Assembly: GCA_043815665.1 (NCBI GenBank)
Contig: JBDRIT010000251.1
Coordinates: 2,818-66,817, forward strand
DNA from: Pseudomonadota bacterium
Lineage (GTDB): Bacteria > Myxococcota_A > UBA9042 > CAIXZC01
Direction: 5' to 3'
Length of the DNA: 64,000 bases
Part shown: piece after piece, positions 39,324 to 60,419 of the stretch
Numbering within the stretch: the stretch's first letter is position 1
How the letters are laid out: the number at the start of each line of letters is the position of its first letter
Notes under the pieces: model-generated
What the model saw: the letters and a program-made list of their open reading frames with translations, nothing else
The model's database searches: none
Told to the model about the DNA's origin: nothing
Program-made: the position numbers and the translations under genes

Positions 39324-41057
39324 TCAGAACCTCCATAGGATCGCAGCGTCCCCGAAGCCGCCGGCCTCGACGTCTTCGCTCCCGTCCAGGGTGATCACCT
39401 GCGCCGATGCGCCGCCGGAGAACTCCAGGGAGAGGCCCCCCCAGGGCAGGAGCACCGACAGGCCGGCGCGCAGGGCGCCCCGCCAGGAGAGAGGATCTCC
39501 CTTCACGGACGCCCCGGCCTGCCGGACGAGCCACTGGTGGCCCAGCTCCAGCTCGGCGAAGGGTTCCAGGTAGCGGCCGAAGCCCCTCGGCCACCGCACA
39601 CCGGCGAGCGCACCGACGAAGTAGCCGTCCAGGTGGAACCGCTCCAGGTCCACGCGGTGGGAGGAGCGGGAGTAGGCGAAGGAGAGCCCCATCCAGGCCC
39701 AGCGTCCCAGGGTTCGGGCCAGGCCGAGGCGCGCCCCGTGGGACACCCCGTCGAGGCCCAGTGGCACCGAGCCGACGCGGTACCCTGCGGCCAGGCTCCA
39801 GTTCCGGACCGTCGCGGACCGGGCGAGGACCGCCGCTGCGGGGCGCTGCCGCCCCTCCAGGTAGCCGAGCTGGTAGCCCTGACTCATGGGCACGAGGAAG
39901 AGGCCCCGCCGGAGCTGTTCTCCCTCTGCGGAGCGCTCCGCGATCCGGTTGTCGACGAACTCGAGGGTGGAGACCCGGGCGGTCTCTCCGGAAGGCACCA
40001 GCGCGTCGGCGCCCTGCCGGACCACGTGGTAGCTCCGGCCGCCGGGCAGGCGCAGGCGAACGGGCGCATCGGAGGCCGGGTGAGCGTCCGCGACGCGCAC
40101 TGCGCGGTCGTCCTTGATCCAAATCCGCCCCGGGACGTCGACCTCGAGCCAGGTCGCGTCGCTCCCGACCGAGAGATCCAGGAGGACCCGCTCGTCGTCC
40201 CCGGAGGGTCCCTCGATGAAGTGGTCCGGTCGGGAGTGCGGAGACTCGACGCCGCTCACCGCGGCGGACACGAACGCGACCACCTCTCCGTAGGTGATGC
40301 GCGCGTCCCGGTCCAGATCCGCGCCCCCAGCGAGGGCGCTGCGCACCAGGTAGGAGAAGACGCCGCTGCCCAGGAGGCTGAACTCGAAGGCGCGCACCCC
40401 CTCCGAGGAGGCCAGCAGGAAGCCCGTGTTCGGGAAGCGTCGCGCCGCCCCCTCCTGCTGCAGGGCCTCGGCGAGGGCCTCGGTCACCGGCACCGGGACG
40501 GTGTCGGGACGCCACTTCCCCTCACCTCGGGGGCGGACCAGGTCCCAGGCGTTGCAGGTGTCCACGATCAGGTGGACCGTCACGCCCTGGAGGCGCTCCA
40601 GCATCTTCAGGAGGTCGTCCCGTGTCAGGCGCCCGTCGGGGAGGACGAAGTAGCCGTCCCCCATTGCGTCCACCCCGCCGTGGCCGACGAGGATCAGGAA
40701 CATCTCCTGCGGCGCGTCGGAGCCCTGGATCTCCTCGACCATCTCGTTGAAGCCGCGGAGGATGTCGCTGCGCTGGGGGGCGAGGACCTGCTTCGCCAGC
40801 CCGGGCCAGGTTTCACGGGTCTCGTTGTCGAGGATCGCATGGACATGGGTCCGGGTCGCACGGAACCCGAGGAGCTCCATGTAAGCGAGCGCGTCGTCGT
40901 CCGTGTAGCGCAGGGTGGGGAACTCCTCGTCGCCGACGCCGGGGGAGGAGATGATGAAGAGGTTCACCTCTGACGGCCCCGGCCGGGCGTCTGACGCGGT
41001 CGCCGGAGCGGCGACCACGATGATGACCATCGTGATGGCCAGGGTCATCCATCTCAT
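39324..41057 (-). CDS. Secreted caspase-like (clan CD cysteine peptidase) domain protein with a C-terminal putative outer-membrane beta-barrel.
   Basis: Signal peptide MRWMTLAITMVIIVVAAPATASD. His-Gly and Cys motifs of clan CD (FLILVGHGG … HLIVDTCNAW). The C-terminal ~250 aa have alternating hydrophobic pattern, G/R/Y-rich loops and a terminal ...ILWRF aromatic residue typical of beta-barrel OMPs. Confidence 0.65.
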   Translation of the reverse strand: MRWMTLAITMVIIVVAAPATASDARPGPSEVNLFIISSPGVGDEEFPTLRYTDDDALAYMELLGFRATRTHVHAILDNETRETWPGLAKQVLAPQRSDILRGFNEMVEEIQGSDAPQEMFLILVGHGGVDAMGDGYFVLPDGRLTRDDLLKMLERLQGVTVHLIVDTCNAWDLVRPRGEGKWRPDTVPVPVTEALAEALQQEGAARRFPNTGFLLASSEGVRAFEFSLLGSGVFSYLVRSALAGGADLDRDARITYGEVVAFVSAAVSGVESPHSRPDHFIEGPSGDDERVLLDLSVGSDATWLEVDVPGRIWIKDDRAVRVADAHPASDAPVRLRLPGGRSYHVVRQGADALVPSGETARVSTLEFVDNRIAERSAEGEQLRRGLFLVPMSQGYQLGYLEGRQRPAAAVLARSATVRNWSLAAGYRVGSVPLGLDGVSHGARLGLARTLGRWAWMGLSFAYSRSSHRVDLERFHLDGYFVGALAGVRWPRGFGRYLEPFAELELGHQWLVRQAGASVKGDPLSWRGALRAGLSVLLPWGGLSLEFSGGASAQVITLDGSEDVEAGGFGDAAILWRF

Positions 41058-41920
41058 GGCACGACCTCCCGAACGACGAGGATCCAGGACCCGGACTCGC
41101 AGTCTCGTCGCGTGTCCAGGAGGTCGTCGATGCCCTCCTGTCCACCCGCGGCTGCGTCAGCCCAGTCCGTCCAGGGGATCGGATCGTCGCAGGCGGCCCA
41201 CACCACCTGGTAGGGGCCGGTTGGGTAGTTTATGGAGAGATCCAGGGTCGGCCAGGCCTCCGTCGGGCGGTCAGCAGGCGCGACCCAGCCGGGATCCACG
41301 TGGACCGGGTTGGGCACGATCCAGACGGGCTCGTCCCCGCCGTAGGGCAACGCCACGGCGTGGAGCCAGGCGCCGACGTCCGTGCGCAGCACGTAGGTGA
41401 GGAGCAGGTACTGGTCTGCACCGCAGACGGCGAGACCTTGCGACGCGATCGCCCCCTCGACGACGTGGCTCTCGGAATCCATGCAGTAGGGGCGCAGGTA
41501 GGCTGCGCCGTCCCCGCGGGCGGTCCAGATCCCGGGCTGCTCCACGCCGGGGCGATCCGGCTCCATGCCGGTGGGCAGGAGCACGGCCAGGAGCACCGCC
41601 GCTGCCGCCAGGGCCCAGCGGGCTGCGCGCCGGGCGAACCGTGCGGGCGGATCCCCGGCTCCTGCGAGCGCGGGAGAATAGAAGCGAGTCAGGGATTCGA
41701 AGCTGGAGGCGATCCGAGCCTCCATGGGGCCCAGCACGGCGAACGCATCGGCTCTCTGCGCCAGGGCGAGATCCACCCCGGCGAGGCGATCGTAGCGTCG
41801 GCGTGCCGTCTCGTCCCGCCGCAGGGCAGCGCCGAGGCCCTCCAGGTCCTGGGGAGCCAGGGACAGGAAGGCCGCCTCGAGGCGCTGTTCACAGGTCCCT
41901 TGCTGTTCCATCCGGGGCAC
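41054..41920 (-). CDS. Anti-sigma-factor-like membrane protein: cytoplasmic N-domain, one TM helix, periplasmic C-domain.
   Basis: It sits immediately downstream of the ECF sigma gene with a 3-nt gap. Single hydrophobic helix WALAAAAVLLAVLLP in the middle. The start overlaps the downstream gene by 4 nt. Confidence 0.6.
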   Translation of the reverse strand: MPRMEQQGTCEQRLEAAFLSLAPQDLEGLGAALRRDETARRRYDRLAGVDLALAQRADAFAVLGPMEARIASSFESLTRFYSPALAGAGDPPARFARRAARWALAAAAVLLAVLLPTGMEPDRPGVEQPGIWTARGDGAAYLRPYCMDSESHVVEGAIASQGLAVCGADQYLLLTYVLRTDVGAWLHAVALPYGGDEPVWIVPNPVHVDPGWVAPADRPTEAWPTLDLSINYPTGPYQVVWAACDDPIPWTDWADAAAGGQEGIDDLLDTRRDCESGSWILVVREVVP

Positions 41921-41923
41921 CTC

Positions 41924-42475
41924 TCAATCCTCCACGTCGGTCCCGCCCTCTCGCCGGGTCAGCTGCGCGAGGCGAGACCTCGCTCGTTGCACTGCGCGCT
42001 TGACCCAGTTCCGGTCCACGCCCAGGTGCCGCGCGGTGCTCTCCTGGGTTCGGCGATCGAGCAGGGTCATCAGCACCGCGCTGCGTTCCCGTTCACTCAA
42101 CGATTCGAGCACCTTCTCCACGAGCTCCGCCGCCTCCAGCTGCATCTCCGGCCCCTGCGTGGCGGCCTCCGGTGCGTCGCCGGAGTGCATTCGCGCCGTC
42201 TGCCGCAGGCTCGTCCGGGTCACGTTCCTCGCGATCGCCACGAGATACGTGAAGTACTTGACGGACCCGCTGTAGGCGTCGCGCTGCCGTGGGCTGAACG
42301 CCAGGCAGAACGTCTCCGAGAGCACGTCCATCAGATCAAATCGGCTCAACCGATACCGTGCGACCAGGAACCGCACCAGGTCGTCACGGTAGGTCGAGAA
42401 GACGAGCTCGAGCACCTCCTTGTCCCCTGATCTGAATCGAGACAGCAGATCAGGTCGTTCCCGGAACAGGGACAT
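41924..42475 (-). CDS. ECF-type RNA polymerase sigma-70 family factor.
   Basis: Region 2 (…VLSETFCLAFSPRQRD…YLVAIARNVTRT) and region 4 HTH (…ERERSAVLMTLLDRRTQESTARHLGVDRNWVKRAVQRARSRL). 183 aa. Confidence 0.9.
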   Translation of the reverse strand: MSLFRERPDLLSRFRSGDKEVLELVFSTYRDDLVRFLVARYRLSRFDLMDVLSETFCLAFSPRQRDAYSGSVKYFTYLVAIARNVTRTSLRQTARMHSGDAPEAATQGPEMQLEAAELVEKVLESLSERERSAVLMTLLDRRTQESTARHLGVDRNWVKRAVQRARSRLAQLTRREGGTDVED

Positions 42476-44639: not shown

Positions 44640-46037
44640 ATGATGGATACAACAGTCGTCAAGGTGGGCCGCCCGGTGGCCAAAGGCTCCGGGCGGGATC
44701 TGAACTTCGTCTGCGTGTTCAGCGGGTTGAACGTCGTGGACGCCCGGCCCGTCCTGGTCCGGGACGAGATCACGATGGGTCGGACGATCCTCCCGAACCT
44801 CGGCCTCACCACGCCGGATTCCACCATGAGTCGCCATCACTTCAGACTCCAGCGCAGCGGCGCCGGGGTCGTCATCGAAGATCTCGGGTCGAGCAACGGG
44901 ACCTTCGTGAACCGGCAGGAGATTCACGGCACGTCAAATCTCCACCCCGGGGACGTGATCCGCGCGGGGGAGACCTTGTTCCTCCTCCTGGAGACCCCCC
45001 CGTCTCCTCCTGAAACCCCCCGGGACGACGATTTCGTCACGTGCAACGCCGGCCTGCAGCGCATCCTCGGACAGATCGCACGCGTCGCCGGGTCGGACAT
45101 CAGCGTTCTCCTCCTGGGAGAGACCGGCACGGGGAAGGATGTCCTGGCGCAGCACCTGCATCGCCTGAGCGCGCGGAATGGGCGCTTCGTCCCGGTGAAC
45201 TGTTCGGCGATCCCAGCCACCCTCCTGGAGGCCTCCCTGTTCGGCCATGAGCGAGGGGCCTTCACTGGCGCGGATCGGGCGTCCATCGGGATGTTCCGGA
45301 CCGCCGATCGGGGGACCCTGTTCCTGGACGAGATCGGAGAGATGGAGCCCGGACTTCAGGCCAAGCTCCTCCGAAGCCTCGAGACGCGATCGGTCATCCC
45401 GGTCGGTGCGGCGCGGGAGATCCGGGTCAACGTGCGGATCGTCGCCGCAACGAGCCGGAGTCGTCTGGAGCTGGAGTCCGGTCGCATCCGGGAGGACCTG
45501 CTGGGGCGCCTGGAAGACCTGGTGGTCCAGCTGTCCCCCCTCCGAGAGCGCCGGGAGGACATTCTCTTCTTCGCCGCCAGGGAGATGGGGATCGAGCCGG
45601 GCCAGGCCTTCGGGACCGCGGACGTGGCGGAGGCCCTGCTGCTCTACCCGTGGCCACGGAACGTACGGGAGCTGGTCCGCTCCGTACGCGCCGCGCTCCT
45701 CTTGCACGACGGGTCACCGCCGTTGCGCTGGGAAGACCTGAAGGAGGGGATCCGTCATTTCGGCGGGCTGGCGACGCCGATGCCCGGGGGACGCGCCGGC
45801 GAGTTGCATGCTCCGGTTGACTCGAAGCACCCCTTTGCAACTCCTTTTCGCCGCGATGGAATGGACGAGCTGCGAACAACCACGAAACCCACGGCGCAGC
45901 AGCCGGCCCCATCCCGAGAGACCCTCGAGGCCTTGATTGCCAAATGTGGTGGCAACGTCTCGGCCCTGGCCCGTCAGCTGGGCAAGGATCGGAAGCAGAT
46001 CTACCGCTGGCTCGAGCGCTACGGCCTGAAGGCCTGA
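44640..46037 (+). CDS. Sigma-54-dependent transcriptional activator with N-terminal FHA domain (FHA - AAA+ sigma-54 interaction domain - Fis-type HTH).
   Basis: FHA signature ([10 protein letters not shown]…SRHHFRL…[12 protein letters not shown]). Walker [15 protein letters not shown] motif, ESELFGHE-like [13 protein letters not shown], and a C-terminal HTH (…[23 protein letters not shown]). Confidence 0.9.
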
Positions 46038-46397
46038 TCAACCCTGCAAGAGCGTGGTTTTTACCTTCCAGAGGACCGGCATCAACTTGGCGAGGACCCA
46101 GCCGAGGGCGCGCAGGGCCGGTCCGTCCAGGGGCAGGGAGCGCCCACGGCGGATCGCGTGCACCGCGACGCCGCGCACATCGGAGACCGGGACGGGCGGA
46201 TCTTCCGACGTGCAGCCGTCACCCCGGGTCGTCACGAACCCCTCGCTGACCCGGAGCACGCGGTGCAGGGCGACGTCATCTCCCCGGGGGACCAGGACGA
46301 TCTCGCCGACCCGCGGCAGGCGCCGGGGCAGGGGACGGATCATCACCGGGGTGCCGTCCGGGAGGAAGGGGCGCATGCTCCCACCGCGAGCGATCAT
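46038..46397 (-). CDS. Sec11/SipW-type (S26B, Ser-His) signal-peptidase-like protein, 119 aa. Last gene of the peptide-modification cassette.
   Basis: Box B GGSMRPFLPDG contains the catalytic Ser. Box D GEIVLV…DDVALHRVLRV has His where bacterial type-I signal peptidases have Lys, the same pattern as Sec11 (…PIVHRVLR). ATG 46397 follows immediately after the radical SAM stop. The first 86 codons of the 205-codon ORF are read-through. Confidence 0.65.
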   Translation of the reverse strand: MIARGGSMRPFLPDGTPVMIRPLPRRLPRVGEIVLVPRGDDVALHRVLRVSEGFVTTRGDGCTSEDPPVPVSDVRGVAVHAIRRGRSLPLDGPALRALGWVLAKLMPVLWKVKTTLLQG

Positions 46398-47422
46398 CGG
46401 TCGCCTTCCCCGGAGTCGGGGTCCAGGCGTCGCCAGAGGGCCGTGCGCTGGCAGATTGATGGCGCCGGCCTGGCGGGATCTCCGGTCTCCCGCAGGGACC
46501 GGGCCGGGCACGCGTAGCACCAGGGCCGGTCCGCGCACTCCATGCAGCCCGTGGACGTGCCCCAGGTGAGACTCCGGAGGGGTCGGAGCGACGGAGGGTC
46601 CCGCCACAGGTCGGCGAGGCGCTCGTCCCGCACGTTTCCGAGGGTCTCGGGCCACTCGAGGCAGGGGCGTACGTTGCCGTCGGGGCCGACGTAGAGGGAG
46701 AGCCGCCCGGCGAGGCAGACGGGCTCGTCGGCCCGCACCTCCCTGCGGGGTGGGCGGTCACCGAAGGCAGTCTCCCATTGCTCCTGCCTGGAGGACTCGC
46801 CGACCCAGAGCCCATCGAGGGGGTAGCCCTCGAAGCAGCCGATGTCCTTGAGTTCGTTGATCGCTACGGTGCGGATCCCCTGGGCGAGGAGCCCGCTGCG
46901 GACCGTCGAGAAGTCCTCCTCGAAACCCTGGAGCAGGGTCACCACGGCCTCCACCCGGACCCCCAGCGCCTGCAGACGCAGGATCGTGGCGAGGCTGCGG
47001 TCGAAGGAGCCGGGGAGGCGGGTCACCTCATCGTGGACCAACCGACGGTGGCTGTAGAGGCTCACATGGACCGTGCGCACCCCGAGCTTCGCCAGGGTGT
47101 CGCAGTCCTCGGGCCGGCACAGGGTCCCCGAGGTCTTCACCAGCACCATGAATCCCCGACGCCGGGCCTCCCCGACGATGTCGAGGAAGTCCGGACGGGT
47201 GAAGACCTCCCCGCCGCTGAACAGGAGACTCATCACCCCCATGTCGGCGAGCTGTTCGAGGACATCGACGAGGTCGGCGAGGGACAGCTCCTTGGGCGCG
47301 TCGCCGCCGAGGTAGCAGTGTCGGCACCGCAGGGGGCAGCGCCAGGTCGGGTCGATGTGTGCATGGAACAGACGCCCGTGACGAAGATATCGCTGGTAGA
47401 GCCAGGCTACGTGGTCGGACAC
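46394..47422 (-). CDS. Radical SAM / SPASM-domain peptide-modifying maturase.
   Basis: CxxxCxxC cluster WRCPLRCRHCY near the N-terminus. C-terminal auxiliary-cluster Cys pattern (…VCLAGR…GNVRPCLEW…GCMECADRPWCYACPA). 342 aa. Confidence 0.9.
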   Translation of the reverse strand: MSDHVAWLYQRYLRHGRLFHAHIDPTWRCPLRCRHCYLGGDAPKELSLADLVDVLEQLADMGVMSLLFSGGEVFTRPDFLDIVGEARRRGFMVLVKTSGTLCRPEDCDTLAKLGVRTVHVSLYSHRRLVHDEVTRLPGSFDRSLATILRLQALGVRVEAVVTLLQGFEEDFSTVRSGLLAQGIRTVAINELKDIGCFEGYPLDGLWVGESSRQEQWETAFGDRPPRREVRADEPVCLAGRLSLYVGPDGNVRPCLEWPETLGNVRDERLADLWRDPPSLRPLRSLTWGTSTGCMECADRPWCYACPARSLRETGDPARPAPSICQRTALWRRLDPDSGEGDR

Positions 47423-48222
47423 GTCAACCTCCGGAAGAGCGCCCGATCCAGATCCTTGAGGGAGACGTCCATCATCCGACAGGGGACCTCGGCGACGATC
47501 TTTATGAGGCGGTCCATCAGCAGGGCAGAGAGGGTGGGGGAGCCGGGGAAGAGGACGGCGTTGCGGATCGCCAGGCGGAGGGCTTCGGCGACGGGCAGGG
47601 CGGGTCCCAGGGTGGTCCTCCCGCCTCGACGGAGGAACAGGAGGCCACCCAGGGGGAGGGTCCCCGTCCCCGTAGCGTTGACCCCCCCGGCGCGCCAGAG
47701 GCCGTCGTCACCGGGCACCAGCGTGGTGAGGTCGTCCGTGATCTTCCTGTCGGGGTCGAGCCGGTTGACGACGGTGCTCTTTCCTGTCGCGTGGGGCGCA
47801 GGGAAGGTCCAGGCGCGGCCGCTCTGCGCCGATGTGGACGCGTGGAGGACCACGCCGAGACCCTCCTCCAGCAGGGCGGCGACCCCGGTCGCAGCCAGGG
47901 TCAGGGTCAGCTGGTCCATCATCTCGCCCGGCCGCAGCGAGGGATCCAGTGTCAGTCCACATCCTCCGGAGTCGATGTACGCGACGGCACCTCGCGCCTG
48001 GAACGACAATCGCCCCCGCTCCTCTACGAATCTCGGTTCGCTCGACGCGGGCTCCGAGGGACCGATCACCACGTCGAGGATGCGATGGACGCGGCGCGGC
48101 CACGGGTCGTATCGAAGCGTCTTGGGAGGCGCCGCCGCCCGGACGAGCTTGTCCAGCCGGATGGGATCCAATGCGGGATCGAAGTGGGCTTCGAAGCTGA
48201 CCGGGCCGAAGGCGAGGTTCAT
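47407..48222 (-). CDS. HPr kinase C-terminal-domain-related P-loop protein (HprK-related kinase of RiPP-type cassettes).
   Basis: GVVLHASTSAQSGRAWTFPAPHATGKSTVVNRL matches the HprK C-domain core (…LHAS…G…GxSGxGKST). The start is set at ATG 48222 (MNLAFGPVSFEAHF…). The upstream 53 codons of the long ORF overlap the precursor ORF in another frame. Confidence 0.65.
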   Translation of the reverse strand: MNLAFGPVSFEAHFDPALDPIRLDKLVRAAAPPKTLRYDPWPRRVHRILDVVIGPSEPASSEPRFVEERGRLSFQARGAVAYIDSGGCGLTLDPSLRPGEMMDQLTLTLAATGVAALLEEGLGVVLHASTSAQSGRAWTFPAPHATGKSTVVNRLDPDRKITDDLTTLVPGDDGLWRAGGVNATGTGTLPLGGLLFLRRGGRTTLGPALPVAEALRLAIRNAVLFPGSPTLSALLMDRLIKIVAEVPCRMMDVSLKDLDRALFRRLTCPTT

Positions 48223-48265: not shown

Positions 48266-48415
48266 TCAGCCAGTGGGGGTCTGCCAGCCGCAGCCCCCGC
48301 CGCTGAGCGCCTGGAACAAGCATCCCGACTGGAGGACGTTCTTCTCGAAGCCCTCGCGGACCTCGACCACCGGCTGCACATAGGCCTTCTTCATCTGCTT
48401 GGCGTCATTCATCAT
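48266..48415 (-). CDS. Putative RiPP precursor peptide (49 aa): MMNDAKQMKKAYVQPVVEVREGFEKNVLQSGCLFQALSGGGCGWQTPTG.
   Basis: A perfect AGGAGG lies 8 nt upstream of ATGATG (minus strand). The peptide has a charged leader-like N-half and a Gly/Cys/Ser/Thr-containing C-half. It sits directly upstream of the kinase-like, rSAM/SPASM and peptidase genes on the same strand, with a 43-nt spacer to the next gene. Confidence 0.55.
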   Translation of the reverse strand: MMNDAKQMKKAYVQPVVEVREGFEKNVLQSGCLFQALSGGGCGWQTPTG

Positions 48416-48471
48416 GGAGTGACCTCCTACGTGGGGACAGTGTATCGAACCATCCCCGGGTGTCAATCGAC

Positions 48472-51400
48472 TCAGCGGACCAGCACCAGGTAACCTGCCC
48501 CGTTGGTCCCGACCATCATGTCCGGGTGTCCGTCGCCGGTGAAGTCACTGAGCGGGGCGATACGGAGGCCGCCGAAGTCCAGGTTGCCGGGCTCGAAGGG
48601 ATCCTCGATGGTCAGATCCAGCTCCTGGAAGCTGCCCATACCGTGGATCCCCGGGAGGTTGTGCCGGACATAGACGGAGCCGAAGAAGGAGAACCCGTTG
48701 AAGTCGCCGTACACCAGGTCTCCCGAGCACTCGGGCTGGATCGGTGAGTCGTCGAAGTTTCCGAGGAGCCCGATGGACTGGAAGTTGCCCTGGATGATGG
48801 TCCCCGCAGAGCCGACCCAGGCGCTCCCCGCAGCCGTGACCGCGCCGATCGTCAAGGTGGTCCCGATGGCTCCGCCGATCGCGTCCCCGCGGAAGAGATA
48901 GATCGACAGGCCGTTGGAGAGGGCCGCCTGCAAGTGGGCGCCGATCACCTCGGGGATCCCGTCACAGTCCAGGTCCTCGCCGAGGATCTGTCCGAAGAAC
49001 CAGTCCGCCGCCGCCAGGCTGCCCTGGGGGCGCAGCCGCACCGCTGCGGCGTCCTCGCTCCCGCTCCCGTCCAGGGTCGACGAGAGAGAGATCGCAGCGG
49101 TGCTGACCATCGCCCGTCCCCGGACGACGAAGGCTGCGGATGGCCCCGTGTACTGGCTGATGACGATGTCGTCGTACTGGGTCCCCTCGCCGTCCCCGTC
49201 CGGGAGGACGTTGCCGACCCCGCTGGCGCTGATGCCGAACCAGTCGTTGGCGGTGCCGCCGACCTGGCTGATCTTGAGGATCAGGGAGGCCGCCTGGTCC
49301 CCGGCGTCCTCGAGGTCGATCTCCAGGGGCGCGACGCCCCAGTTGGCGTTGCCGGGCACGACGTAGACCGTGTTCTTCTGGGGCGCGGCGACGACGATGT
49401 CGTCGATGGGGATCTGACCGTTCAGATCGCCATTGAAGTTGCCGGCGCCGGCGATGGGGACGAAGTTGACCCAGAGGAGCCCGGTCGTCCCGAAGACCAG
49501 GGAGACCTCCGGCGAGGTGCTGAGCACCCCGGAGGCCTTTCCGAGGTAGATGCGCACCCGCGTCCTGTCGGTGCCGTCGGCGTCCTTGTAGGAGACCACG
49601 GCGACGTCGTCGTAGCCGTCGCCGTTCACGTCCCCCACACCCGCCAGATCCAGGCCGACCTGGCTCTGGACGCCGTCGAAGAGACATTGCGTGAGCGCAT
49701 CCTGCGAGAGATCGATGGACGCGGGCGGATCCTCCCGCCCCTGCATGAGGCAGAAGCCGTTCTCGCCGTAAGCGCCGAGGAGCAGGTCTTCGAGGTCGTC
49801 GCCGTTGATGTCACCGGCGCGCACCGGGGTTGCGTCCATGTTGCCGTCGGTGTAGGAGCCGCGGAGCACCTCGGTGTATTGGAGGCGCACGGCGTTGGTG
49901 GATTTGGAGTTCGCCGTGCTGAACGGGGAGACGTTGCCCACATCGTCGTAGGCCAGCACTCCGAAGTAGAACATCGACGAGGGATCGACGCCCGTGACGA
50001 ATCGGCACGGGTCCGCTGGCGCACGGTTGTCGGGACCGGCGACGACAAAGGCTTCGAGCGCCCCGGGGGTCGCCGGCGCCGGTGGCTCAGCGTTCTGGGT
50101 CAGACCCGAGAGGTCGCAGGCCTGGTCGAAGTTCACGGGGGTGATGGGCGCGGTGGAGAAACGGACCTCGTAGGAGGCCGCAGCACCTCCGGCGTTGCCG
50201 TCGTCGCCGACGGCTGACCACTTGAGGGTCACCGCGGGTCGCCGCGGGTTGACGTCCGCCGCGGGGTTGATGGTCTGGAGGACCACGCCGGCTGGCGGGG
50301 TCACGTCCACGTTGAGGGTCAGGGTCGTCGCTCCGTTGTTCCCGGCCGCATCGGTGGCGGTCGCGGTGAGGGTCCGCTGAGCGGCCTCCCCCAGGGTGAC
50401 GTCGGAGGGCCAGGAGTAGGCGAAGGGCGCTCCGGTCATGGACGTCTCGCCGAGGGTTGTCGGCGGGCCACCCGTGTCGGTGGTCAGAGTCACCTCGCCG
50501 CCAGTGAGGTTGTCGCCGGTGACGTTCACCGCGACGGTGAGCTGGCAGCCACCCGCACCGGGGTTCTTGTCGTTGGCCTGGTTGAGGATGCTCGTGGAGG
50601 GCGTCGGTGCAGTGAAGGCAACCACGGGGAGCGTGAGGTCCACGCTGTAGGACCAGTCACCCGTGGTGTCCCCGGTCTCTGCACCGCCGACGAGGAGTCG
50701 GGCCTCGAAGGCGACGCTGTCCCCGTCATCCAGGGTCAGCGGGAACGCCACGGAGCTGCCTGCGGTGACTGCGAGGGTGGCCTCCACCTGACCGTCCTTG
50801 TACAGCCGCACCTGATCCACCGCACCACAGCCCGTGGTGAAGGTCGCCGTGAGGTCGGTCGCGATGGTCGCACAGCTCTGGCCGGGCGGGTCGCAGTCGG
50901 CCGTGTTGTACCAGCCGGAGGCGGGCGCGTCGATGAAGCTCACCTGGCACGCGGTGAAGGTGAGGGTCAGGTTCGCCGAGAGGACGGAGGTGTTTCCGAC
51001 CCCGTCGACGATCACGACCTGCACCTGTCTGTACTCGATCTCCGCGTCGACCGTCCCGACGGTGATGAGCTCGCTGACGGTGACGAGGGACTCGTCGGGC
51101 AGGGTCCCCGTCTTGGCGGGGACGCCACCGGCGCACCCGGTGAAGGATGCGTCCGGGCATTTGGCCAGCTTGATCGTCCAGCCCGCTGCGCCGGACGCCT
51201 CGAACTCCGTCAGGAACTGGAAGCCCGGGATCGTCAGCGACGCGTCGTCGCCATCGGTGAAGCCGACCGCTGGTGCAGGCTGGTTGAGGGTCGCCGATGG
51301 CGGGCTGCGGTCCACGAAGATGTACTCGGGTGACGTGACGGCAAGCGCCTCGTTGTTCGCGTCGTCCCGGACCCAGCCGCGGAGCTGGTAGGCCCCGTCC

Positions 51401-54400
51401 TGGGCGAGGATGCCGCTGAAGGTGACCTGCCCCTGTGCGTTCGGTGCCCCGGAAGAGAGCTCGACCCAGGTGCCCCCCACGTTCCGCTCCAGGTGGACGT
51501 CGTTCCCGTCCGTGCCGCTGGCCACGAGGTGTGTGTCCGGCGAGGAGCCCTGGATCAGGGGCGAGCTGGCCGGCGCTGTGAACGAGAGCACCGGCACCGC
51601 CGTGTCGACGAAGACCTCGATCCCGTATGGCGTGCTCACGTTGCCGACCTGGTCGATGGCCAGGATCTGGAGGGTGTTCAGCCCTTCGAAGAGTGCCAGC
51701 GCCAGATCCACCTGGGAGCCGGCCATGCTCACCTCCTCGATGAGGATCCCGTTGTCCCAGACCTTCATGGTGCCGGTCTCTGCGCTGGTGAGGGTGACCT
51801 CTGCGATGTACGTCGACGGCGCGGCGTCGACCTCCGCCTGGTTGAGGGTCCCGAGGGGCGGCAGGGTGTCGGATGGGAAGGCCACACCCGAGATCACCGG
51901 GGCGACGATGTCCAGCCAGTAGTGGCGGTCCTGCTTCGTGTAGTTCGGCGTGTTGGTGGAGAGGACCCAGGTCCCCGTGTTGGAGAGGGCCTCGGCGATC
52001 ATTCGATGGTACCCGGACGGGAGCGCCGCGACTTCGGCCGCCGTGAGCTGCACGAACACGCTGCCGCCGCCGTGGTTCACGGACTTGACCACCCGGAACT
52101 TCACCGGGCCGTCAGTGGTCTCACAGAGAGCTGCACCCTGGGCGGCGAGGGTCGGGTGCGCGGAGCAGATCCGCAGGGGCGCCGTCTCCGACGAGAAGAG
52201 TTCCGCCGGCTGGGACTTGGCGTCGACTTTATGGGCGCCGTTCTTCCAGGGGAACATGCACTTCTTCGACCCGTCGACCGGCTTGCAGATGCCCGTGGCG
52301 GAGCAGTCGCCGTTGTCCACGCAGAGATCGAAGGAGACGTAGTCGGAGCCCTCGAGCCTCACCTGAGTGGTCGTGAGGAAGAACTGGACTGCGAAGATCA
52401 AGCTGTCCGTGTTGCCCGCAGCGTCGGAGACCGACACCACGATCTGGTGCACACCCTCCCCGAAAGTCATCTGCGGGAACACGACCTCTCCGGTCTGCCC
52501 GTCGGGGATCCCCTCGCCAAGGATCACCGAGGTCGCCTCGGGAGCGCCGATCTCCGGCGTGATCAGCAGGTCCACAGACTGGCCCGCCTCGAGGCCCTGA
52601 ACCCCCACGATGAGGGTGTACTGGTAGCCCTCGGCAGCGGGGTCCTCATCGAGGCTGGCCGGCATCAACTCAAAGTCCGGCTGCATGAATCCGGTGATCA
52701 CCGGTGCCGTGCGGTCGACGATGACGGTCACGGCGGTCGAGTCTGCAGACTGTCCGGCGAGGTCCTCCACCGAAGCGCCGAGGGTGCACGTGGCGCCGTC
52801 CGCGAGCGCTACGCCTGGCCAGGACACCGCATCTCCAGCGACGGCTCCGGGGATCGTCGTCGGGGCGCCACAGTCCACCGTCAGCGACGCCGCGCTGCCG
52901 TTCTCTGCGTTGGTGGTCACCGCGGTGACCACCAGGCTGCAACCGGGGAGGCCGGCCGCACAGAGGTTCGAGGCCAGGTTGAGGATCGCACCATCCTCGG
53001 GCGCGGTCAGGGCGATGGTCGGGGTGCCGTCCTTGAGGAGCACCGAGCGGGTGCCGGAGTACCCGACCTCCGCGTGGGAGGGATGGATCGCAGAAGCCTG
53101 GATCTTCACGGGGACGCCAGGGGTGAGGCCGTCGAGGGAGAACTGGTAGAGGCCGCCCGGGCCCGCCGTCTGATTCCCGAACTCCGCACCGTCCACGAAG
53201 AGGGTGACCGTCGCGTCCTCGAGGGGGATCGCACCGTCGGAGGAGGTCACGGACAGGGTGACCGGGACCGGCTGGCTCGAGACCACGATGTTCTTGGTGG
53301 GGCTGGTGAAGACGACCTTGGGTGCGTCCACGGCGAAGGAGAAGGTTGTCTGGGCCGGCACCGTGACGTGCCCCGCGGCGTCCGTCACCGTGAGGTCGAT
53401 CGTGTTGGTGCCGGGGGTGATGGTGAGGCCGTCGAAGTTCACTTCACCCGTGTCGGCGTCCGGGAAGAGACAGAGCGCCGCCTCGCCGTTGAAGGAGAGG
53501 CAGACCTCAACGAGATCCGGGTGGGCCTCGCCGGTGACCATGGCGTTGACGGCCACCTGGTTGCCGAGCTGATCCGCGTCGGTGTCCGGACAACTCGTCG
53601 GATCACAGATCGCGCCGTCCTGGGGCGTCAGGACGAAGATCTGTGGCCACAAGGCGTCGAGCTCCAGGGACACCTCGGTGAGGCTGCCCGGGTTCGCCGA
53701 GGCGGCGTTGCCGAAGCCGTCCATCGCGGCCGCAGTGAGGGTGTAGATCCCTTCGTCGAGCAGGGAGAGGTCCTCCATGACGCTGAACCCGAGCAGGGTC
53801 GCCTGGACCTCCGTGGTCCACGCCTCGGCGCCGCCCTGGGTGAGGGACAGGGTCACGATCTGGCCTTTCAGGAAGAGAGTCGCCCCCACGACCGAGAAGG
53901 CCTCCGCCGGGACGATCTCGCCGTCTTCTGGGTTGGTGAGGATCAGGAGGGGCGCGGGGAGGCCCACCGTGAGGGAGATCTCGGGAGACACCACCGGCGG
54001 GGCGTTGTTGTCCCTGGCGCGGCAGATGACCTGGCTCCCCACCAGCGCGGTGTTGATCTGGACATCCATGGTGTACTGCCCGTCCGGGGCCGCCGCGGAC
54101 ACGGTGAACATCCCCCCGTCGCGCCAGAGGGACCCGGACTGGTTCTTCCGGTACTGGACCTGGAGGACCGTCCCTGCGTCGGCGAGGGGCGCGTACACCA
54201 GGAAGGAGGTGTCCATGACGGACAGGGTCCCCGGCACGGTGTCAGCCGCCGCCAGGAGGGTGGCGCCGGACAGGGGTGAGAGGATCATCACGTTGGCCGG
54301 GGCCAGGAGCGAAACGACGTTGACGGACGCGGTCGCCAGGGCTCCGCAGCACGCGTCGGATGCGGCGACGGCGATCTCGTGCAGACCATCCGAGGCCAGG

Positions 54401-55548
54401 GTGATGGTGTCGACGGTGAAGACGCCGCCAGGCGCGGAGGTCACTGCGACCTCCACCCCGTCGATGGTGACCGTGATCTCGTCATCCGGGCCGAGGCCGG
54501 TGGCCAGGCCGTCAAGGACGAGCTGGATGCCGTTCTCCGGAACACCGTCCAGATCGTCGCCCAGGTTGACCGTGGTCGGGGACGGGGACGTGATCTCCAG
54601 GGTCGGGGGCACCGTGTCCAGGGTGTAGTCGAGCGCCGTGGACTCCGTCCGGGACTCGTCGGCGCTGTCGGCGACGTAGGCCGTGACGTTGGTCGCCTGG
54701 CAGTCGAGGTCGTCCACGCTGGCGGCGACGGTGATCTGGAGCTCCGCTTCACCGCCGACCAGGTTCACCTGCTCCGAGGCGCCCGTGTCCGTCTCCAGCC
54801 ATGCCGTGTCGCAGTCGGTTCCGCCGTTGGTGACCGTGAAGGTCGCCTGGAACCCGTCCATGTCCGGATCCCCGTCGACTGACAGACAGCTCTGGTTGCT
54901 CGGGGCCAGGGTTACGCCGCAGCTCCCCGTGTCCACGCAGACGGTCTTCGTGACGGTGATCAGATCCTCGGCAGAGATCACCATCTCGTGGCAATCGGGG
55001 TCCGTCGCGTTGGTGAGATGGACCATCGAGAAGCTGAAGATGTCGCCGGGGAGGTCCTGGGTGGCCACGGTGTTGCCGTCGATGTCCAGGGAGATCGTCG
55101 TCCCTGCCGGGACGTTCAGGGTCGTCACCTGGATGTCGACTTCGAGGGCCGGGGTCAGCGGGTAGAGGTCGTCCGAGGTTTCTTCGTTCTTGACGAGGTC
55201 CACCTGGTCGACGTCGGTCCCGACGCAGCCCGCGACGGGGGTCATGAGGCAGAAGGACAGCTCCGCCGGTGGGGGAGGCGGGACGTCCACGTCTGGCTCC
55301 ACCTCGTCGGGGACATCGGGGACGTCGGGGACGTCAGGGACGTCGGGGACATCGGAGACGTCCGGGACGTCCCCGGTGAACTCGTCCAGGACGTCCGTGA
55401 GGTCGAAGTCCACGACATCAGCGTCCCCCTCGAGATCAACCGAACTGTCCGGGACGTCCGTGATCGGGAGGGGCGGTGAGCTGTCCGGGCAGCCGATGAC
55501 GAGGGTCAGCATCATCGCCAGAACCGCTGCGATCGTGACTCGATTCAT
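48472..55548 (-). CDS. Giant surface lipoprotein (2358 aa). Order of parts: lipoprotein signal, (DVP)n acidic linker, many Ig-like/beta-sandwich segments, C-terminal FG-GAP/VCBS-type beta-propeller repeats.
   Basis: MNRVTIAAVLAMMLTLVIGC is a lipoprotein signal with GGAGG 8 nt upstream. FG-GAP-like motifs GDINGDDLEDLLLGAY, GDVNGDGYDDVAVVSY and FTGDGHPDMMVG lie near the C-terminus. Continuous 7-kb ORF. Confidence 0.8.
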   Translation of the reverse strand: MNRVTIAAVLAMMLTLVIGCPDSSPPLPITDVPDSSVDLEGDADVVDFDLTDVLDEFTGDVPDVSDVPDVPDVPDVPDVPDEVEPDVDVPPPPPAELSFCLMTPVAGCVGTDVDQVDLVKNEETSDDLYPLTPALEVDIQVTTLNVPAGTTISLDIDGNTVATQDLPGDIFSFSMVHLTNATDPDCHEMVISAEDLITVTKTVCVDTGSCGVTLAPSNQSCLSVDGDPDMDGFQATFTVTNGGTDCDTAWLETDTGASEQVNLVGGEAELQITVAASVDDLDCQATNVTAYVADSADESRTESTALDYTLDTVPPTLEITSPSPTTVNLGDDLDGVPENGIQLVLDGLATGLGPDDEITVTIDGVEVAVTSAPGGVFTVDTITLASDGLHEIAVAASDACCGALATASVNVVSLLAPANVMILSPLSGATLLAAADTVPGTLSVMDTSFLVYAPLADAGTVLQVQYRKNQSGSLWRDGGMFTVSAAAPDGQYTMDVQINTALVGSQVICRARDNNAPPVVSPEISLTVGLPAPLLILTNPEDGEIVPAEAFSVVGATLFLKGQIVTLSLTQGGAEAWTTEVQATLLGFSVMEDLSLLDEGIYTLTAAAMDGFGNAASANPGSLTEVSLELDALWPQIFVLTPQDGAICDPTSCPDTDADQLGNQVAVNAMVTGEAHPDLVEVCLSFNGEAALCLFPDADTGEVNFDGLTITPGTNTIDLTVTDAAGHVTVPAQTTFSFAVDAPKVVFTSPTKNIVVSSQPVPVTLSVTSSDGAIPLEDATVTLFVDGAEFGNQTAGPGGLYQFSLDGLTPGVPVKIQASAIHPSHAEVGYSGTRSVLLKDGTPTIALTAPEDGAILNLASNLCAAGLPGCSLVVTAVTTNAENGSAASLTVDCGAPTTIPGAVAGDAVSWPGVALADGATCTLGASVEDLAGQSADSTAVTVIVDRTAPVITGFMQPDFELMPASLDEDPAAEGYQYTLIVGVQGLEAGQSVDLLITPEIGAPEATSVILGEGIPDGQTGEVVFPQMTFGEGVHQIVVSVSDAAGNTDSLIFAVQFFLTTTQVRLEGSDYVSFDLCVDNGDCSATGICKPVDGSKKCMFPWKNGAHKVDAKSQPAELFSSETAPLRICSAHPTLAAQGAALCETTDGPVKFRVVKSVNHGGGSVFVQLTAAEVAALPSGYHRMIAEALSNTGTWVLSTNTPNYTKQDRHYWLDIVAPVISGVAFPSDTLPPLGTLNQAEVDAAPSTYIAEVTLTSAETGTMKVWDNGILIEEVSMAGSQVDLALALFEGLNTLQILAIDQVGNVSTPYGIEVFVDTAVPVLSFTAPASSPLIQGSSPDTHLVASGTDGNDVHLERNVGGTWVELSSGAPNAQGQVTFSGILAQDGAYQLRGWVRDDANNEALAVTSPEYIFVDRSPPSATLNQPAPAVGFTDGDDASLTIPGFQFLTEFEASGAAGWTIKLAKCPDASFTGCAGGVPAKTGTLPDESLVTVSELITVGTVDAEIEYRQVQVVIVDGVGNTSVLSANLTLTFTACQVSFIDAPASGWYNTADCDPPGQSCATIATDLTATFTTGCGAVDQVRLYKDGQVEATLAVTAGSSVAFPLTLDDGDSVAFEARLLVGGAETGDTTGDWSYSVDLTLPVVAFTAPTPSTSILNQANDKNPGAGGCQLTVAVNVTGDNLTGGEVTLTTDTGGPPTTLGETSMTGAPFAYSWPSDVTLGEAAQRTLTATATDAAGNNGATTLTLNVDVTPPAGVVLQTINPAADVNPRRPAVTLKWSAVGDDGNAGGAAASYEVRFSTAPITPVNFDQACDLSGLTQNAEPPAPATPGALEAFVVAGPDNRAPADPCRFVTGVDPSSMFYFGVLAYDDVGNVSPFSTANSKSTNAVRLQYTEVLRGSYTDGNMDATPVRAGDINGDDLEDLLLGAYGENGFCLMQGREDPPASIDLSQDALTQCLFDGVQSQVGLDLAGVGDVNGDGYDDVAVVSYKDADGTDRTRVRIYLGKASGVLSTSPEVSLVFGTTGLLWVNFVPIAGAGNFNGDLNGQIPIDDIVVAAPQKNTVYVVPGNANWGVAPLEIDLEDAGDQAASLILKISQVGGTANDWFGISASGVGNVLPDGDGEGTQYDDIVISQYTGPSAAFVVRGRAMVSTAAISLSSTLDGSGSEDAAAVRLRPQGSLAAADWFFGQILGEDLDCDGIPEVIGAHLQAALSNGLSIYLFRGDAIGGAIGTTLTIGAVTAAGSAWVGSAGTIIQGNFQSIGLLGNFDDSPIQPECSGDLVYGDFNGFSFFGSVYVRHNLPGIHGMGSFQELDLTIEDPFEPGNLDFGGLRIAPLSDFTGDGHPDMMVGTNGAGYLVLVR
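55300..55380 (-). repeat. Short tandem 9-bp repeat (GGACGTCGG / GGACATCGG on the plus strand) encoding a (DVP)n / DVSDVPDVPDVPDVPDVPDE acidic linker.
   Basis: Direct reading: gacatcggg gacgtcggg gacgtcagg gacgtcggg gacatcgga gacgtccgg gacgtcc. Confidence 0.8.
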
Positions 55549-60303: not shown

Positions 60304-60419
60304 TCTTCCTCCTCGACGGGTCGAACCGTTCAGGACACGATTGGTTCAGAGATGAACCGAGCTCCAGGCATTATATCGCGCGCGTGGAGTGAATCAATTC
60401 CCGAGGGGATTCGGGGGCC

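What the first reader, a model, noticed from the sequence alone, without database searches (positions are those of the whole stretch)
47407..48222. HPr-kinase-related P-loop protein with no HPr/PTS context
The LHAS…GxxGxGKST core of the HprK C-terminal domain is present (GVVLHASTSAQSGRAWTFPAPHATGKSTVVNRL). The N-terminal HprK domain is absent, and no ptsH/crh is nearby. This is the pattern of the HprK-related kinase families reported in peptide-modification neighbourhoods. Substrate unknown.
Basis: partly seen in the sequence, partly recalled or inferred. Interest (0 to 1): 0.6.

Follow-up and report, generated by a model that had tools for sequence, protein, structure and literature searches.

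The report
Peptide-kinase-like enzyme in a peptide-modification operon
This gene encodes a small ATP-binding enzyme distantly related to the bacterial HPr kinase. It sits in a conserved operon that looks built to modify a 49-residue peptide chemically, so it is most likely a peptide kinase of an uncharacterised family and not a sugar-regulation kinase.

Summary
Window 47407..48222 (-) is a real 271-aa gene containing ...LHASTSAQSGRAWTFPAPHATGKST...DD.

- **Family.** The protein reaches no curated family cutoff (ScmC 16 bits against 125; HprK_rel_A 12.5 against 200; no Pfam hit). A profile of its 958-member wider family links it to the HprK catalytic core (hhalign 96.6%), to ATP-PEPCK (E 4.7e-7) and to BsfK, a proven peptide kinase (60.9 bits).
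- **Fold.** A confident AF2 model (pLDDT 94.7) returns only PEPCK structures in its top 50 matches.
- **Catalytic residues.** H127, K148, S149, D163 and D164, the residues essential in lasso-peptide kinases, are invariant in the subfamily.
- **Operon.** The gene lies in a conserved minus-strand operon: PqqD chaperone, 2,359-aa surface lipoprotein, 49-aa two-cysteine peptide with a YxxPxV leader, this gene, radical SAM/SPASM enzyme, small Sec11-like peptidase. A convergent FHA/sigma-54 regulator follows. No HPr, PTS or lasso genes are present.

Best explanation (about 0.55): an ATP-dependent, PqqD-assisted kinase of the precursor peptide, probably acting on invariant Ser30, alongside radical-SAM cross-linking. 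No biochemistry exists for this family.

It is a new variant of a known but uncharacterised kind, of moderate interest.

The parts
47407..48222 (-). ScmC-like, HprK/PEPCK-superfamily P-loop protein (271 aa), putative peptide kinase. H127, A142-T150 (APHATGKST) and D163-D164 are the catalytic motif.
   Evidence: ORF and codon-position GC. Homologues and invariant residues. Weak ScmC and HprK_rel_A hits. hhalign to the HprK core 96.6%. PEPCK by profile and by fold. AF2 pLDDT 94.7. BsfK scores 60.9 bits against the family profile.
48266..48415 (-). Precursor-peptide gene (49 aa): MMNDAKQMKKAYVQPVVEVREGFEKNVLQSGCLFQALSGGGCGWQTPTG. It has a YxxPxV leader motif, invariant Ser30 and Cys32, and a second Cys 9-10 residues later.
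   Evidence: AGGAGG 7 nt before the ATG. GC3 of 0.90. Called as a 48-50 aa gene in the same position in L001-L005. Alignments of 5 and 10 orthologues. Also present in L010 and L011.
48439..48466 (-). Sigma-70-like promoter (TTGACA, 16 nt, TACACT) directly upstream of the peptide gene.
   Evidence: Consensus scan, 10 of 12 positions. Both hexamers, except the last base of the -35 hexamer (G in L009), and the RBS core AGGA are invariant in 7 loci while the spacer varies. Function not tested.
46394..47422 (-). Radical SAM/SPASM enzyme (342 aa) with no N-terminal RRE domain. Its start overlaps the kinase-like gene by 16 nt.
   Evidence: PF04055 at 1.8e-22 and PF13186 at 8.8e-09. Best NCBIfam matches are NirJ2, GeoRSP, PqqE and ScmE, all far below cutoff. 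An overlapping radical SAM gene follows the ScmC-like gene in every locus where the downstream gene can be read.
46038..46397 (-). Small Sec11/archaeal-type (S26B-like) serine peptidase, 119 aa. It has Ser7 (GGSMRP), His45 (LHRV) and Asp60 (RGD). ATGA overlap with the radical SAM stop. Candidate leader peptidase.
   Evidence: Start mapping. Peptidase_S24 at E 0.004. sigpep_I_arch at E 4.8e-4. SEC11A/C are the best PDB matches at E about 0.016, with the Ser/His/Asp motifs aligned. Conserved in L001, L003, L004 and in the distant locus L008. All scores are below curated cutoffs.
55648..55926 (-). PqqD-family peptide chaperone (RRE), 92 aa.
   Evidence: PF05402 at 7.6e-12. Weak lasso_PqqD and ScmD hits. 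33% identical to the lasso RRE BsfB1, E 3e-9. Same position in L001, L003 and L007.
48472..55548 (-). Giant surface lipoprotein (2,359 aa from Met; lipobox LVIGC) with Ig-like (Big_13, Big_3_3) domains and C-terminal FG-GAP repeats. It lies between PqqD and the peptide gene. Its role in the system is unknown.
   Evidence: Pfam. Start and lipobox. Conserved position in all subfamily loci. Full-length homologue (30% identity over 2,442 aa) in L006, where the ScmC-like protein is only 25% identical.
44640..46037 (+). FHA-domain sigma-54-dependent transcriptional activator, convergent with the cassette. Possible regulator.
   Evidence: PF00498, PF00158 and an HTH domain. Same position and orientation in L001, L003 and L004. 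No sigma-54 promoter consensus above chance in the window.

Best explanation
The gene encodes a cytosolic, two-domain P-loop phosphotransferase of the HprK/PEPCK superfamily. It is a divergent ScmC-like protein that works as a tailoring enzyme of a ribosomal-peptide (RiPP-like) pathway.

Proposed sequence of events:
1. The 49-aa precursor is transcribed from its own conserved promoter.
2. Its YxxPxV leader is bound by the separately encoded PqqD chaperone.
3. The ScmC-like enzyme uses ATP/Mg2+ to phosphorylate a hydroxyl of the precursor. The catalytic residues would be Lys148, Ser149 and Thr150 of the P-loop, His127, Asp163 and Asp164. The best acceptor candidate is invariant Ser30, two residues before invariant Cys32.
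4. The translationally coupled radical SAM/SPASM enzyme cross-links the two conserved cysteines or their neighbours.
5. The small Sec11-like peptidase removes the leader.

Shown here: superfamily membership, conservation of the catalytic residues, the fold, and the conserved operon and peptide.

Inferred: kinase activity, the peptide as substrate, Ser30 as acceptor, the order of steps, and the chemistry of the radical SAM step.
For: **Superfamily and fold**
- hhalign of the family profile against the HprK catalytic core: 96.6%, E 5.5e-10.
- ATP-PEPCK 1j3b at E 4.7e-7 over hHASa...G.SGtGKtT...DD.
- Foldseek: the top 50 hits are all PEPCK, at probability 0.99-1.00, on a model with pLDDT 94.7.

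**Catalytic residues**
- H127, G147, K148, S/T149 and T150 are conserved in 60/60 family members, D163 in 54/60, and D/E164 in 60/60. All are invariant in the subfamily.
- The same His-Lys-Asp-Asp set is essential by mutagenesis in the lasso kinases (PMC9266682).
- In BsfK the essential set is H148, G163, K169, S170, D186 and D187 (PMC10368454).

**Link to a proven peptide kinase**
- BsfK phosphorylates Ser3 of its precursor's core, and the PqqD-like BsfB1 accelerates the reaction.
- BsfK scores 60.9 bits against the family profile.
- BsfB1 is 33% identical to the window's PqqD.

**Leader register**
- Y12xxP15xV17 lies 17 residues before Q29, the same spacing as Y(-17)xxP(-14)xL(-12) in BsfA.
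- This register puts invariant Val27 at -2, like the Ile/Val(-2) of phosphorylated lasso precursors. It puts invariant Ser30 at core position 2, against pSer3 in BsfA.

**Operon**
- The order peptide, ScmC-like, radical SAM/SPASM is conserved, with overlapping stop and start codons, in every locus examined where the flanking sequence is available, down to 25% identity.
- The kinase plus NTP_transf_5 pairing in distant loci mirrors the K+N pairs of phospho-glycosylated lasso peptides (PMC8498205).
Against: - No member of the ScmC-like family has been studied experimentally. I found no paper on it in the held library.
- The subfamily's P-loop has Ala where BsfK has Gly163, a position reported as important there. 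The PROSITE P-loop pattern [AG]x4GK[ST] does allow Ala.
- The Ser at -2 from Cys32 becomes Thr in L006 and Ala in L007, so the acceptor is not fixed across the wider family.
- Known lasso kinases mostly target a C-terminal Ser, which these peptides lack.
- The protein itself, as opposed to its family profile, shows only marginal similarity to any named model.
- PqqD is 7 kb upstream, separated from the peptide gene by the giant gene.
Confidence: 0.55

Rival explanations
1. The protein binds or hydrolyses ATP but is not a peptide kinase. It would be a structural or chaperone-like subunit of the radical SAM maturase complex, for example gating or delivering the substrate.
For: - Stop/start overlap with the radical SAM gene is conserved even in distant relatives, which suggests a stoichiometric complex.
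- No hydroxyl residue is conserved across all ScmC-associated peptides.
- The subfamily's P-loop departs from the family consensus: A142, H144 and A145.
Against: - The full catalytic set for phosphoryl transfer is under strict conservation: His, Lys, Ser/Thr and the acidic pair.
- The nearest experimentally studied relatives are true kinases.
Confidence: 0.17
2. It is a kinase, but its substrate is not the small peptide. Candidates are the giant lipoprotein precursor, a protein read by the FHA domain of the adjacent sigma-54 activator, or a small molecule.
For: - An FHA (phospho-Thr-binding) regulator is conserved next to the cassette in all subfamily loci.
- The giant protein co-inherits with the ScmC-like gene.
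- PEPCK, the best structural match, acts on a small molecule.
Against: - The FHA regulator is absent from the distant locus L006, which keeps the giant protein, peptide, ScmC-like gene and radical SAM gene.
- L007 and L008 have non-homologous giant proteins.
- The giant protein carries no peptide-like motif.
- At 271 aa the protein lacks most of PEPCK's roughly 540-aa substrate-binding apparatus.
- The peptide gene is immediately upstream in every subfamily locus and in L006 and L007.
Confidence: 0.15
3. It is a genuine HPr kinase/phosphorylase involved in carbon catabolite regulation, truncated at the N-terminus.
For: The H...GK[ST]...DD core aligns with HprK/P.
Against: - No PF07475 or PF02603 hit, even at E 0.1, and no TIGR00679 hit.
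- No EIRGLGI capping motif and no HPr His15 motif in the window.
- No HprK/P among the top 60 PDB profile hits or the top 50 fold hits.
- The operon context is a peptide-modification cassette.
Confidence: 0.02
4. The ORF is not a functional gene: a chance ORF in GC-rich DNA, or a pseudogene.
For: GC-rich DNA yields many long spurious ORFs. Several overlap this one.
Against: - Coding-type codon-position GC.
- Full-length conservation at 52-72% identity, with 80 invariant columns.
- Conserved synteny.
- A confident fold prediction.
Confidence: 0.01

Closest known systems
ScmC, SynChlorMet cassette protein (NCBIfam TIGR04249; Pfam PF27840); function uncharacterised
   Same: - It is the best-scoring named model for this protein and for 44 of 60 family members.
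- Homologues carry a precomputed PF27840 hit.
- The cassette logic is the same: ScmC next to a PqqD homologue (ScmD) and a PqqE-like radical SAM/SPASM enzyme (ScmE/F). That description of the Scm cassette is taken from the model names and from my recollection of the TIGRFAM text.
   Different: - It scores 16 bits against a 125-bit cutoff, so it is not a member by the curated test.
- It has one radical SAM/SPASM gene, not the ScmE+ScmF pair.
- It adds a Sec11-like peptidase, a giant lipoprotein, an identified two-Cys precursor and an FHA/sigma-54 regulator.
Lasso-peptide tailoring kinases: BsfK (Bradymonas), PadeK, ThcoK, SyanK, PsmK
   Same: - They are HPr-kinase homologues that phosphorylate a RiPP precursor before leader removal, using the same essential residues: His, GK[ST] and Asp-Asp (PMC9266682; PMC10368454).
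- BsfK matches this family's profile at 60.9 bits.
- Both systems have a PqqD-type RRE partner (33% identity) and a YxxPx(L/V) leader with Ile/Val at -2.
   Different: - BsfK passes Pfam Hpr_kinase_C (37.5 bits against a 33.3-bit cutoff). This protein gives no hit.
- The window has no lasso cyclase, B2 protease or ABC exporter.
- The partner enzyme is a radical SAM/SPASM protein.
- The peptides have no C-terminal Ser.
HprK-related kinases A and B (TIGR04352, TIGR04355)
   Same: - They belong to the same superfamily: 35 and 28 of 60 family members hit them.
- They are likewise found with PqqD-family chaperones. TIGR04353 is named 'HPr-rel-A system PqqD family peptide chaperone'.
   Different: This protein scores 12.5 bits against a 200-bit cutoff for A and gives no hit to B.
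HPr kinase/phosphorylase HprK/P (PF07475 + PF02603; PDB 1ko7, 1jb1/1kkl, 1knx)
   Same: Homologous catalytic core: His, P-loop and Asp-Asp.
   Different: - It has no HprK N-terminal domain, no capping motif and no HPr partner, and it sits in a different operon.
- HprK/P is not among the best sequence-profile or fold matches.
ATP-dependent PEP carboxykinase (PF01293; PDB 1j3b, 1aq2)
   Same: - It is the best solved-structure match, both by profile (E 4.7e-7) and by fold (E about 1e-5, TM 0.37-0.52 normalised to the query).
- It shares the hHAS...GK(T/S)T...DD motif.
   Different: - PEPCK is about twice as long and has dedicated oxaloacetate/PEP-binding elements.
- Sequence identity is 10-14%.
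- The context here is not metabolic.

Membership tests
HPr kinase/phosphorylase (HprK/P) | Hpr_kinase_C domain (PF07475) or TIGR00679 at or above the curated cutoff | tested here: not met
   No Pfam hit at E<=0.1. TIGR00679 is not among the NCBIfam hits. The control BsfK does hit both.
HPr kinase/phosphorylase (HprK/P) | N-terminal HprK domain (PF02603) | tested here: not met
   No hit. Residues 1-120 form a different beta-rich domain.
HPr kinase/phosphorylase (HprK/P) | Catalytic His, P-loop Lys-Ser and Asp-Asp | tested here: met
   H127, K148, S149, D163 and D164 are invariant and align to the HprK core.
HPr kinase/phosphorylase (HprK/P) | Capping/signature motif E-I-R-G-L-G-I | tested here: not met
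   A regex over all six frames of the window found nothing.
HPr kinase/phosphorylase (HprK/P) | HPr/Crh substrate gene or PTS context | tested here: not met
   No HPr His15 motif in the window. No PTS domains in the Pfam scans. The rest of the genome is not available.
ScmC (TIGR04249 / PF27840) | Score at or above the curated cutoff (125 bits) | tested here: not met
   16 bits, E 0.0056. PF27840 is apparently not in the local Pfam copy: the query and all 60 aligned members returned no such hit. It is on record only as a precomputed annotation on homologues, marked weak for the close ones.
ScmC (TIGR04249 / PF27840) | Cassette with a PqqD homologue and PqqE-like radical SAM/SPASM enzymes | tested here: inconclusive
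   PqqD and one radical SAM/SPASM gene are present. The ScmE+ScmF pair is not: only one radical SAM gene is present. ScmE scores 84 bits against 400, ScmD 18.7 against 100.
HprK-related kinase A / B (TIGR04352 / TIGR04355) | Score at or above the curated cutoff (200 bits) | tested here: not met
   A: 12.5 bits. B: no hit.
RiPP precursor kinases of the HPr-kinase type (lasso K proteins) | Conserved His / GK[ST] / Asp-Asp residues shown essential by mutagenesis | tested here: met
   Searches compared with PMC10368454 and PMC9266682. Caveat: Ala142 sits at the position of BsfK Gly163.
RiPP precursor kinases of the HPr-kinase type (lasso K proteins) | Co-encoded precursor with an RRE-binding leader, plus a PqqD-type RRE | tested here: met
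   YxxPxV leader. PqqD by PF05402, 33% identical to BsfB1.
RiPP precursor kinases of the HPr-kinase type (lasso K proteins) | Lasso machinery (Asn-synthetase-like cyclase C, transglutaminase-like protease B2) in the cluster | tested here: not met
   None found in the Pfam scans of the window's ORFs.
RiPP precursor kinases of the HPr-kinase type (lasso K proteins) | ATP-dependent phosphorylation of the precursor | not testable with these tools
   Needs expression and mass spectrometry.
PEP-carboxykinase-like fold superfamily | Fold and profile similarity to PEPCK or HprK nucleotide-binding domains | tested here: met
   Foldseek probability 0.99-1.00, with the top 50 hits all PEPCK. hmmsearch E 4.7e-7. 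hhalign to HprK 96.6%.

The most novel reading that the evidence does not exclude
The cassette would define an undescribed RiPP class. Its parts are PqqD, a giant Ig/FG-GAP lipoprotein, a two-Cys peptide, an ScmC-like kinase, a radical SAM/SPASM enzyme and a Sec11-like peptidase.

In this reading the peptide is both phosphorylated and radical-SAM cross-linked. The product is not a free antibiotic. It would be a dedicated partner (ligand, cofactor or covalent adduct) of the co-inherited giant surface protein.

The phospho-mark might also be read by the FHA domain of the adjacent sigma-54 activator as a feedback signal.
Probability: 0.15. Interest if true: 0.75.

Novelty: new variant of a known kind. 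Interest (0 to 1): 0.5.

Why it matters
HPr-kinase-type enzymes are proven RiPP tailoring kinases only in lasso-peptide pathways. The much larger ScmC/HprK-related group (958 representative clusters at E<=1e-3) has database names but no biochemistry.

This locus offers a compact, conserved and testable example. The putative substrate peptide, its chaperone, the partner radical SAM enzyme and a candidate leader peptidase are all identified.

Showing phosphorylation here would:
- assign a function to the ScmC-type families;
- document a kinase plus radical SAM combination that I did not find described among RiPPs in the held library;
- open the question of why such cassettes travel with giant surface proteins.

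If instead the protein turns out to be a non-catalytic partner, that would be a new accessory role for this fold.

Tried and rejected
**Attempts that gave nothing usable**
- The first AF2 run, on the 11-sequence subfamily alignment, gave pLDDT of about 30 for the P-loop half. I discarded it and replaced it with the 60-sequence run.
- The subfamily profile alone finds nothing in the PDB and only a weak match to the HprK core (15.6%). The link needs the wider family profile.
- The search for related loci with the wide alignment failed because no stretch was conserved enough. With the subfamily alignment it found only 1 genome locus and 2 metagenome loci.
- A sigma-54 promoter search (TGGCAC-N5-TTGC, up to 2 mismatches) gave 43 hits against 48 expected, so no signal.
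- Literature searches for ScmC, SynChlorMet, the TIGR/PF accessions, and HPr kinase combined with radical SAM returned nothing relevant beyond the lasso-peptide work. The primary paeninodin paper is not held.

**Ideas considered and rejected**
- Start codon at 48381. It has the wrong codon-position GC, overlaps the peptide gene, and homologues start at 48222.
- A lanthipeptide-like route of phosphorylation then elimination. No lyase or cyclase is present, so I did not adopt it.
- The giant protein as a second, peptide-like substrate. It contains no YxxPx(V/I/L), GFEK or S-x-C...C motif.
Full report
**1. Observation.** The ORF at 47407..48222 on the minus strand encodes 271 aa.

It is a real gene:
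- GC by codon position is 0.69/0.53/0.85, like the adjacent radical SAM gene. The alternative upstream extension to 48381 has a non-coding pattern and would overlap the peptide gene.
- Twelve homologues at 52-87% identity exist, and the full-length ones share the start M-x-L-A/E/S-F-G-P and 80 invariant columns.
- With a diverse alignment, AlphaFold2 gives pLDDT 94.7 and pTM 0.91.

The P-loop is APHATGKST, that is [AG]x4GK[ST]. The wider family has GPSGAGKST.

**2. Family assignment.**

The protein itself is very divergent:
- no local Pfam hit at E<=0.1;
- only ScmC TIGR04249 at 16 bits (cutoff 125) and HprK_rel_A at 12.5 bits (cutoff 200);
- its subfamily profile finds nothing in the PDB.

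An exhaustive profile search found 958 representative clusters at E<=1e-3 but only 4 at E<=1e-30. The protein therefore belongs to a small subfamily of a large, diffuse family.

A 60-sequence alignment of that family (A3) gave these results:
- 44, 35 and 28 members hit ScmC, HprK_rel_A and HprK_rel_B.
- The profile matches ATP-PEPCK 1j3b at E 4.7e-7 over hHASa...G.SGtGKtT...DD.
- hhalign against an HprK/P catalytic-core alignment gives 96.6% probability, E 5.5e-10, over 107 columns. That alignment was built from the PDB pieces shown.

Foldseek of the model against the PDB returns only PEPCK structures in the top 50, with E from 1e-5 to 5e-4 and query-normalised TM of 0.36-0.52. PEPCK and the HprK C-terminal domain are known to share one fold superfamily (established knowledge).

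The protein is therefore a two-domain 'mini-PEPCK/HprK-like' phosphotransferase. It is not a member of HprK/P proper.

**3. Context.** On the minus strand the order of genes is:

| Position | Gene |
|---|---|
| 61342..63375 | UvrD |
| 60420..61358 | Memo |
| 55951..60303 | 1,450-aa Cys-rich PPC protein |
| 55648..55926 | PqqD |
| 48472..55548 | giant Ig-like/FG-GAP lipoprotein |
| 48266..48415 | 49-aa peptide gene, with a strong RBS |
| 47407..48222 | the ScmC-like gene |
| 46394..47422 | radical SAM/SPASM gene, 16-nt overlap with the ScmC-like gene |
| 46038..46397 | 119-aa Sec11-like peptidase, ATGA overlap with the radical SAM gene |

A convergent FHA/sigma-54 activator lies at 44640..46037.

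The core order is identical in every related locus recovered: L001-L005, and L009-L012 where the flanking sequence is present.

In the distant locus L006, where the ScmC-like protein is only 25% identical, the same four elements recur: a homologous giant protein (30% identity over 2,442 aa), a peptide, the ScmC-like gene and an overlapping radical SAM/SPASM gene. There they are followed by an NTP_transf_5 gene.

L007 and L008 show the same theme with non-homologous giant proteins. L008 also has a similar small peptidase and an NTP_transf_5 gene.

No HPr, PTS, lasso cyclase, B2 protease or ABC exporter is present in the window.

**4. The peptide.** Ten orthologues share K-K-x-Y-x-x-P-x-[VIL]-E-[VI]-x-x-G-F-E-[KR]-x-V-L-x-S-x-C-(9-10 residues)-C, followed by a variable tail.

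A TTGACA, 16/17-nt spacer, TACACT element and an AGGA-core ribosome-binding site (AGGAGG in 6 of the 7) are conserved upstream in 7 loci, apart from one base of the -35 hexamer in L009, although the spacer varies. This argues for a separately and strongly expressed small gene.

YxxPx(L/V) is the RRE-binding motif of lasso leaders (PMC10368454).

**5. Mechanism.** The closest experimentally characterised enzymes are the lasso tailoring kinases.

[quoted passage not shown] They need a His-Lys-Asp-Asp set (PMC9266682; PMC8498205).

BsfK from Bradymonas behaves as follows:
- It phosphorylates Ser3 of the core.
- It is strongly accelerated by the PqqD-like BsfB1.
- It needs H148, G163, K169, S170, D186 and D187.
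- It acts on precursors whose leader has Ile/Val at -2 (and the abstract).

I translated BsfK from the paper's sequence:
- It scores 60.9 bits against the A3 profile.
- It also passes Pfam Hpr_kinase_C and weakly hits HprK_rel_A, HprK_rel_B and ScmC. It therefore bridges HprK and the ScmC-type families.
- BsfB1 is 33% identical to the window's PqqD.

In the window protein H127, K148, S149, D163 and D164 are invariant. The His-to-Lys spacing of 21 residues is identical to BsfK.

Using the lasso register, with Tyr at -17, the junction falls at L28|Q29. That puts invariant Val27 at -2 and invariant Ser30 at core position 2.

I therefore propose RRE-assisted, ATP-dependent phosphorylation of the precursor, probably at Ser30. 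It would be coupled to radical SAM/SPASM cross-linking involving Cys32 and Cys42, and to leader removal by the Sec11-like peptidase. The peptidase has Ser7, His45 and Asp60, and its best PDB matches are SEC11A/C at E of about 0.016.

Everything beyond homology, residue conservation and synteny is inference.

**6. Rivals.**
- A non-catalytic or ATPase partner of the radical SAM enzyme: about 0.17.
- A kinase with another substrate, such as the giant lipoprotein, the FHA pathway or a small molecule: about 0.15.
- A true HprK/P: about 0.02.
- A spurious ORF: about 0.01.

The main weaknesses of the preferred model are:
- no biochemistry exists for any ScmC-type protein;
- Ala142 sits at the position of BsfK Gly163;
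- the Ser is replaced by Thr in L006 and Ala in L007;
- PqqD lies 7 kb from the peptide gene.

**7. Known versus new.** The general idea is already catalogued: HprK-related P-loop proteins sit next to PqqD and radical SAM genes in peptide-modification cassettes (TIGR04249, TIGR04352 and TIGR04355, and Pfam PF27840).

New here:
- a distinct, rare subfamily that fails all curated cutoffs, with 13 clusters among 5.8 billion proteins and one GTDB species, an uncultured Myxococcales MAG;
- an identified precursor family with its own promoter;
- a single radical SAM enzyme plus a Sec11-like peptidase;
- the persistent coupling to a giant surface lipoprotein.

I rate it a new variant of a known kind, with interest 0.5.

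**8. Limits.**
- There is no multimer modelling.
- The context statistics rest on about a dozen loci.
- The HPr absence test covers only this 64-kb window.

Noticed in passing
window 48472..55548 (-); L006 210..7652; L007 1..6456; L008 2384..7348: A giant secreted or lipoprotein gene lies just upstream of the peptide gene. Here it encodes 2,359 aa with lipobox LVIGC, Ig-like domains and a C-terminal FG-GAP region. It is found in every subfamily locus. It is a full-length homologue in L006, although the ScmC-like protein there is only 25% identical. L007 and L008 carry non-homologous giant proteins in the same neighbourhood. The reason for this coupling is unexplained.
   Followed up: partly
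window 48439..48466 (-) and the equivalent positions in L001, L003, L004, L005, L009, L012: A TTGACA, 16/17-nt spacer, TACACT element and an AGGA-core RBS (AGGAGG in 6 of the 7) are conserved before the peptide gene in 7 loci (one base of the -35 hexamer differs in L009), while the spacer sequence varies. This looks like a conserved internal promoter inside the operon.
   Followed up: partly
L006 9881..10954 (-); L008 1..1183: NTP_transf_5 (PF14907) genes accompany ScmC-like and PqqD genes in distant loci. This mirrors the kinase plus nucleotidyltransferase (K+N) pair that phospho-glycosylates the lasso peptide pseudomycoidin. No such gene is in the window.
   Followed up: no
window 44640..46037 (+): An FHA-domain sigma-54 activator is convergent with the cassette in all subfamily loci. 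FHA domains read phospho-threonine, so a link to the kinase-like gene is conceivable. No sigma-54 promoter consensus above chance was found in the window.
   Followed up: partly
window 60420..61358 (-) and 61342..63375 (-); L001 1578..2432: A Memo-like gene and UvrD lie upstream of the cassette. In L001 the Memo stop overlaps the PqqD start. In the window and L003 a Cys-rich PPC-domain protein of about 1,450 aa (55951..60303) is inserted between them, and in the window it has its own sigma-70-like promoter at 60397..60370.
   Followed up: no
window 2..21535: This stretch holds a run of very large repeat proteins. Three have 21-23 thrombospondin type-3 repeats plus MopE-like metal-binding motifs (1,769, 1,844 and 1,476 aa). 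Minus-strand ORFs there carry Dicty_CTDC repeats, and another Dicty_CTDC repeat protein lies just beyond at 24843..28046 (+). The ORFs at 15460..20886 and 19316..21535 overlap and their true boundaries were not resolved.
   Followed up: no
window 39324..42475 (-): An ECF-type sigma factor (41924..42475) is followed by two conserved proteins of 288 and 577 aa with no Pfam hit. The same trio follows the cassette in L003. The 577-aa protein has VGHGG...DTCNAW motifs reminiscent of a caspase-like His/Cys dyad. That is my reading of the sequence only and was not tested.
   Followed up: no
L008 1532..1957: A 141-aa peptidase with GVSMWP...LHRV...RGDNC, the same Sec11-like type as window 46038..46397, sits next to PqqD in a distant ScmC-like locus. 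The small peptidase therefore looks like a recurrent cassette component.
   Followed up: partly
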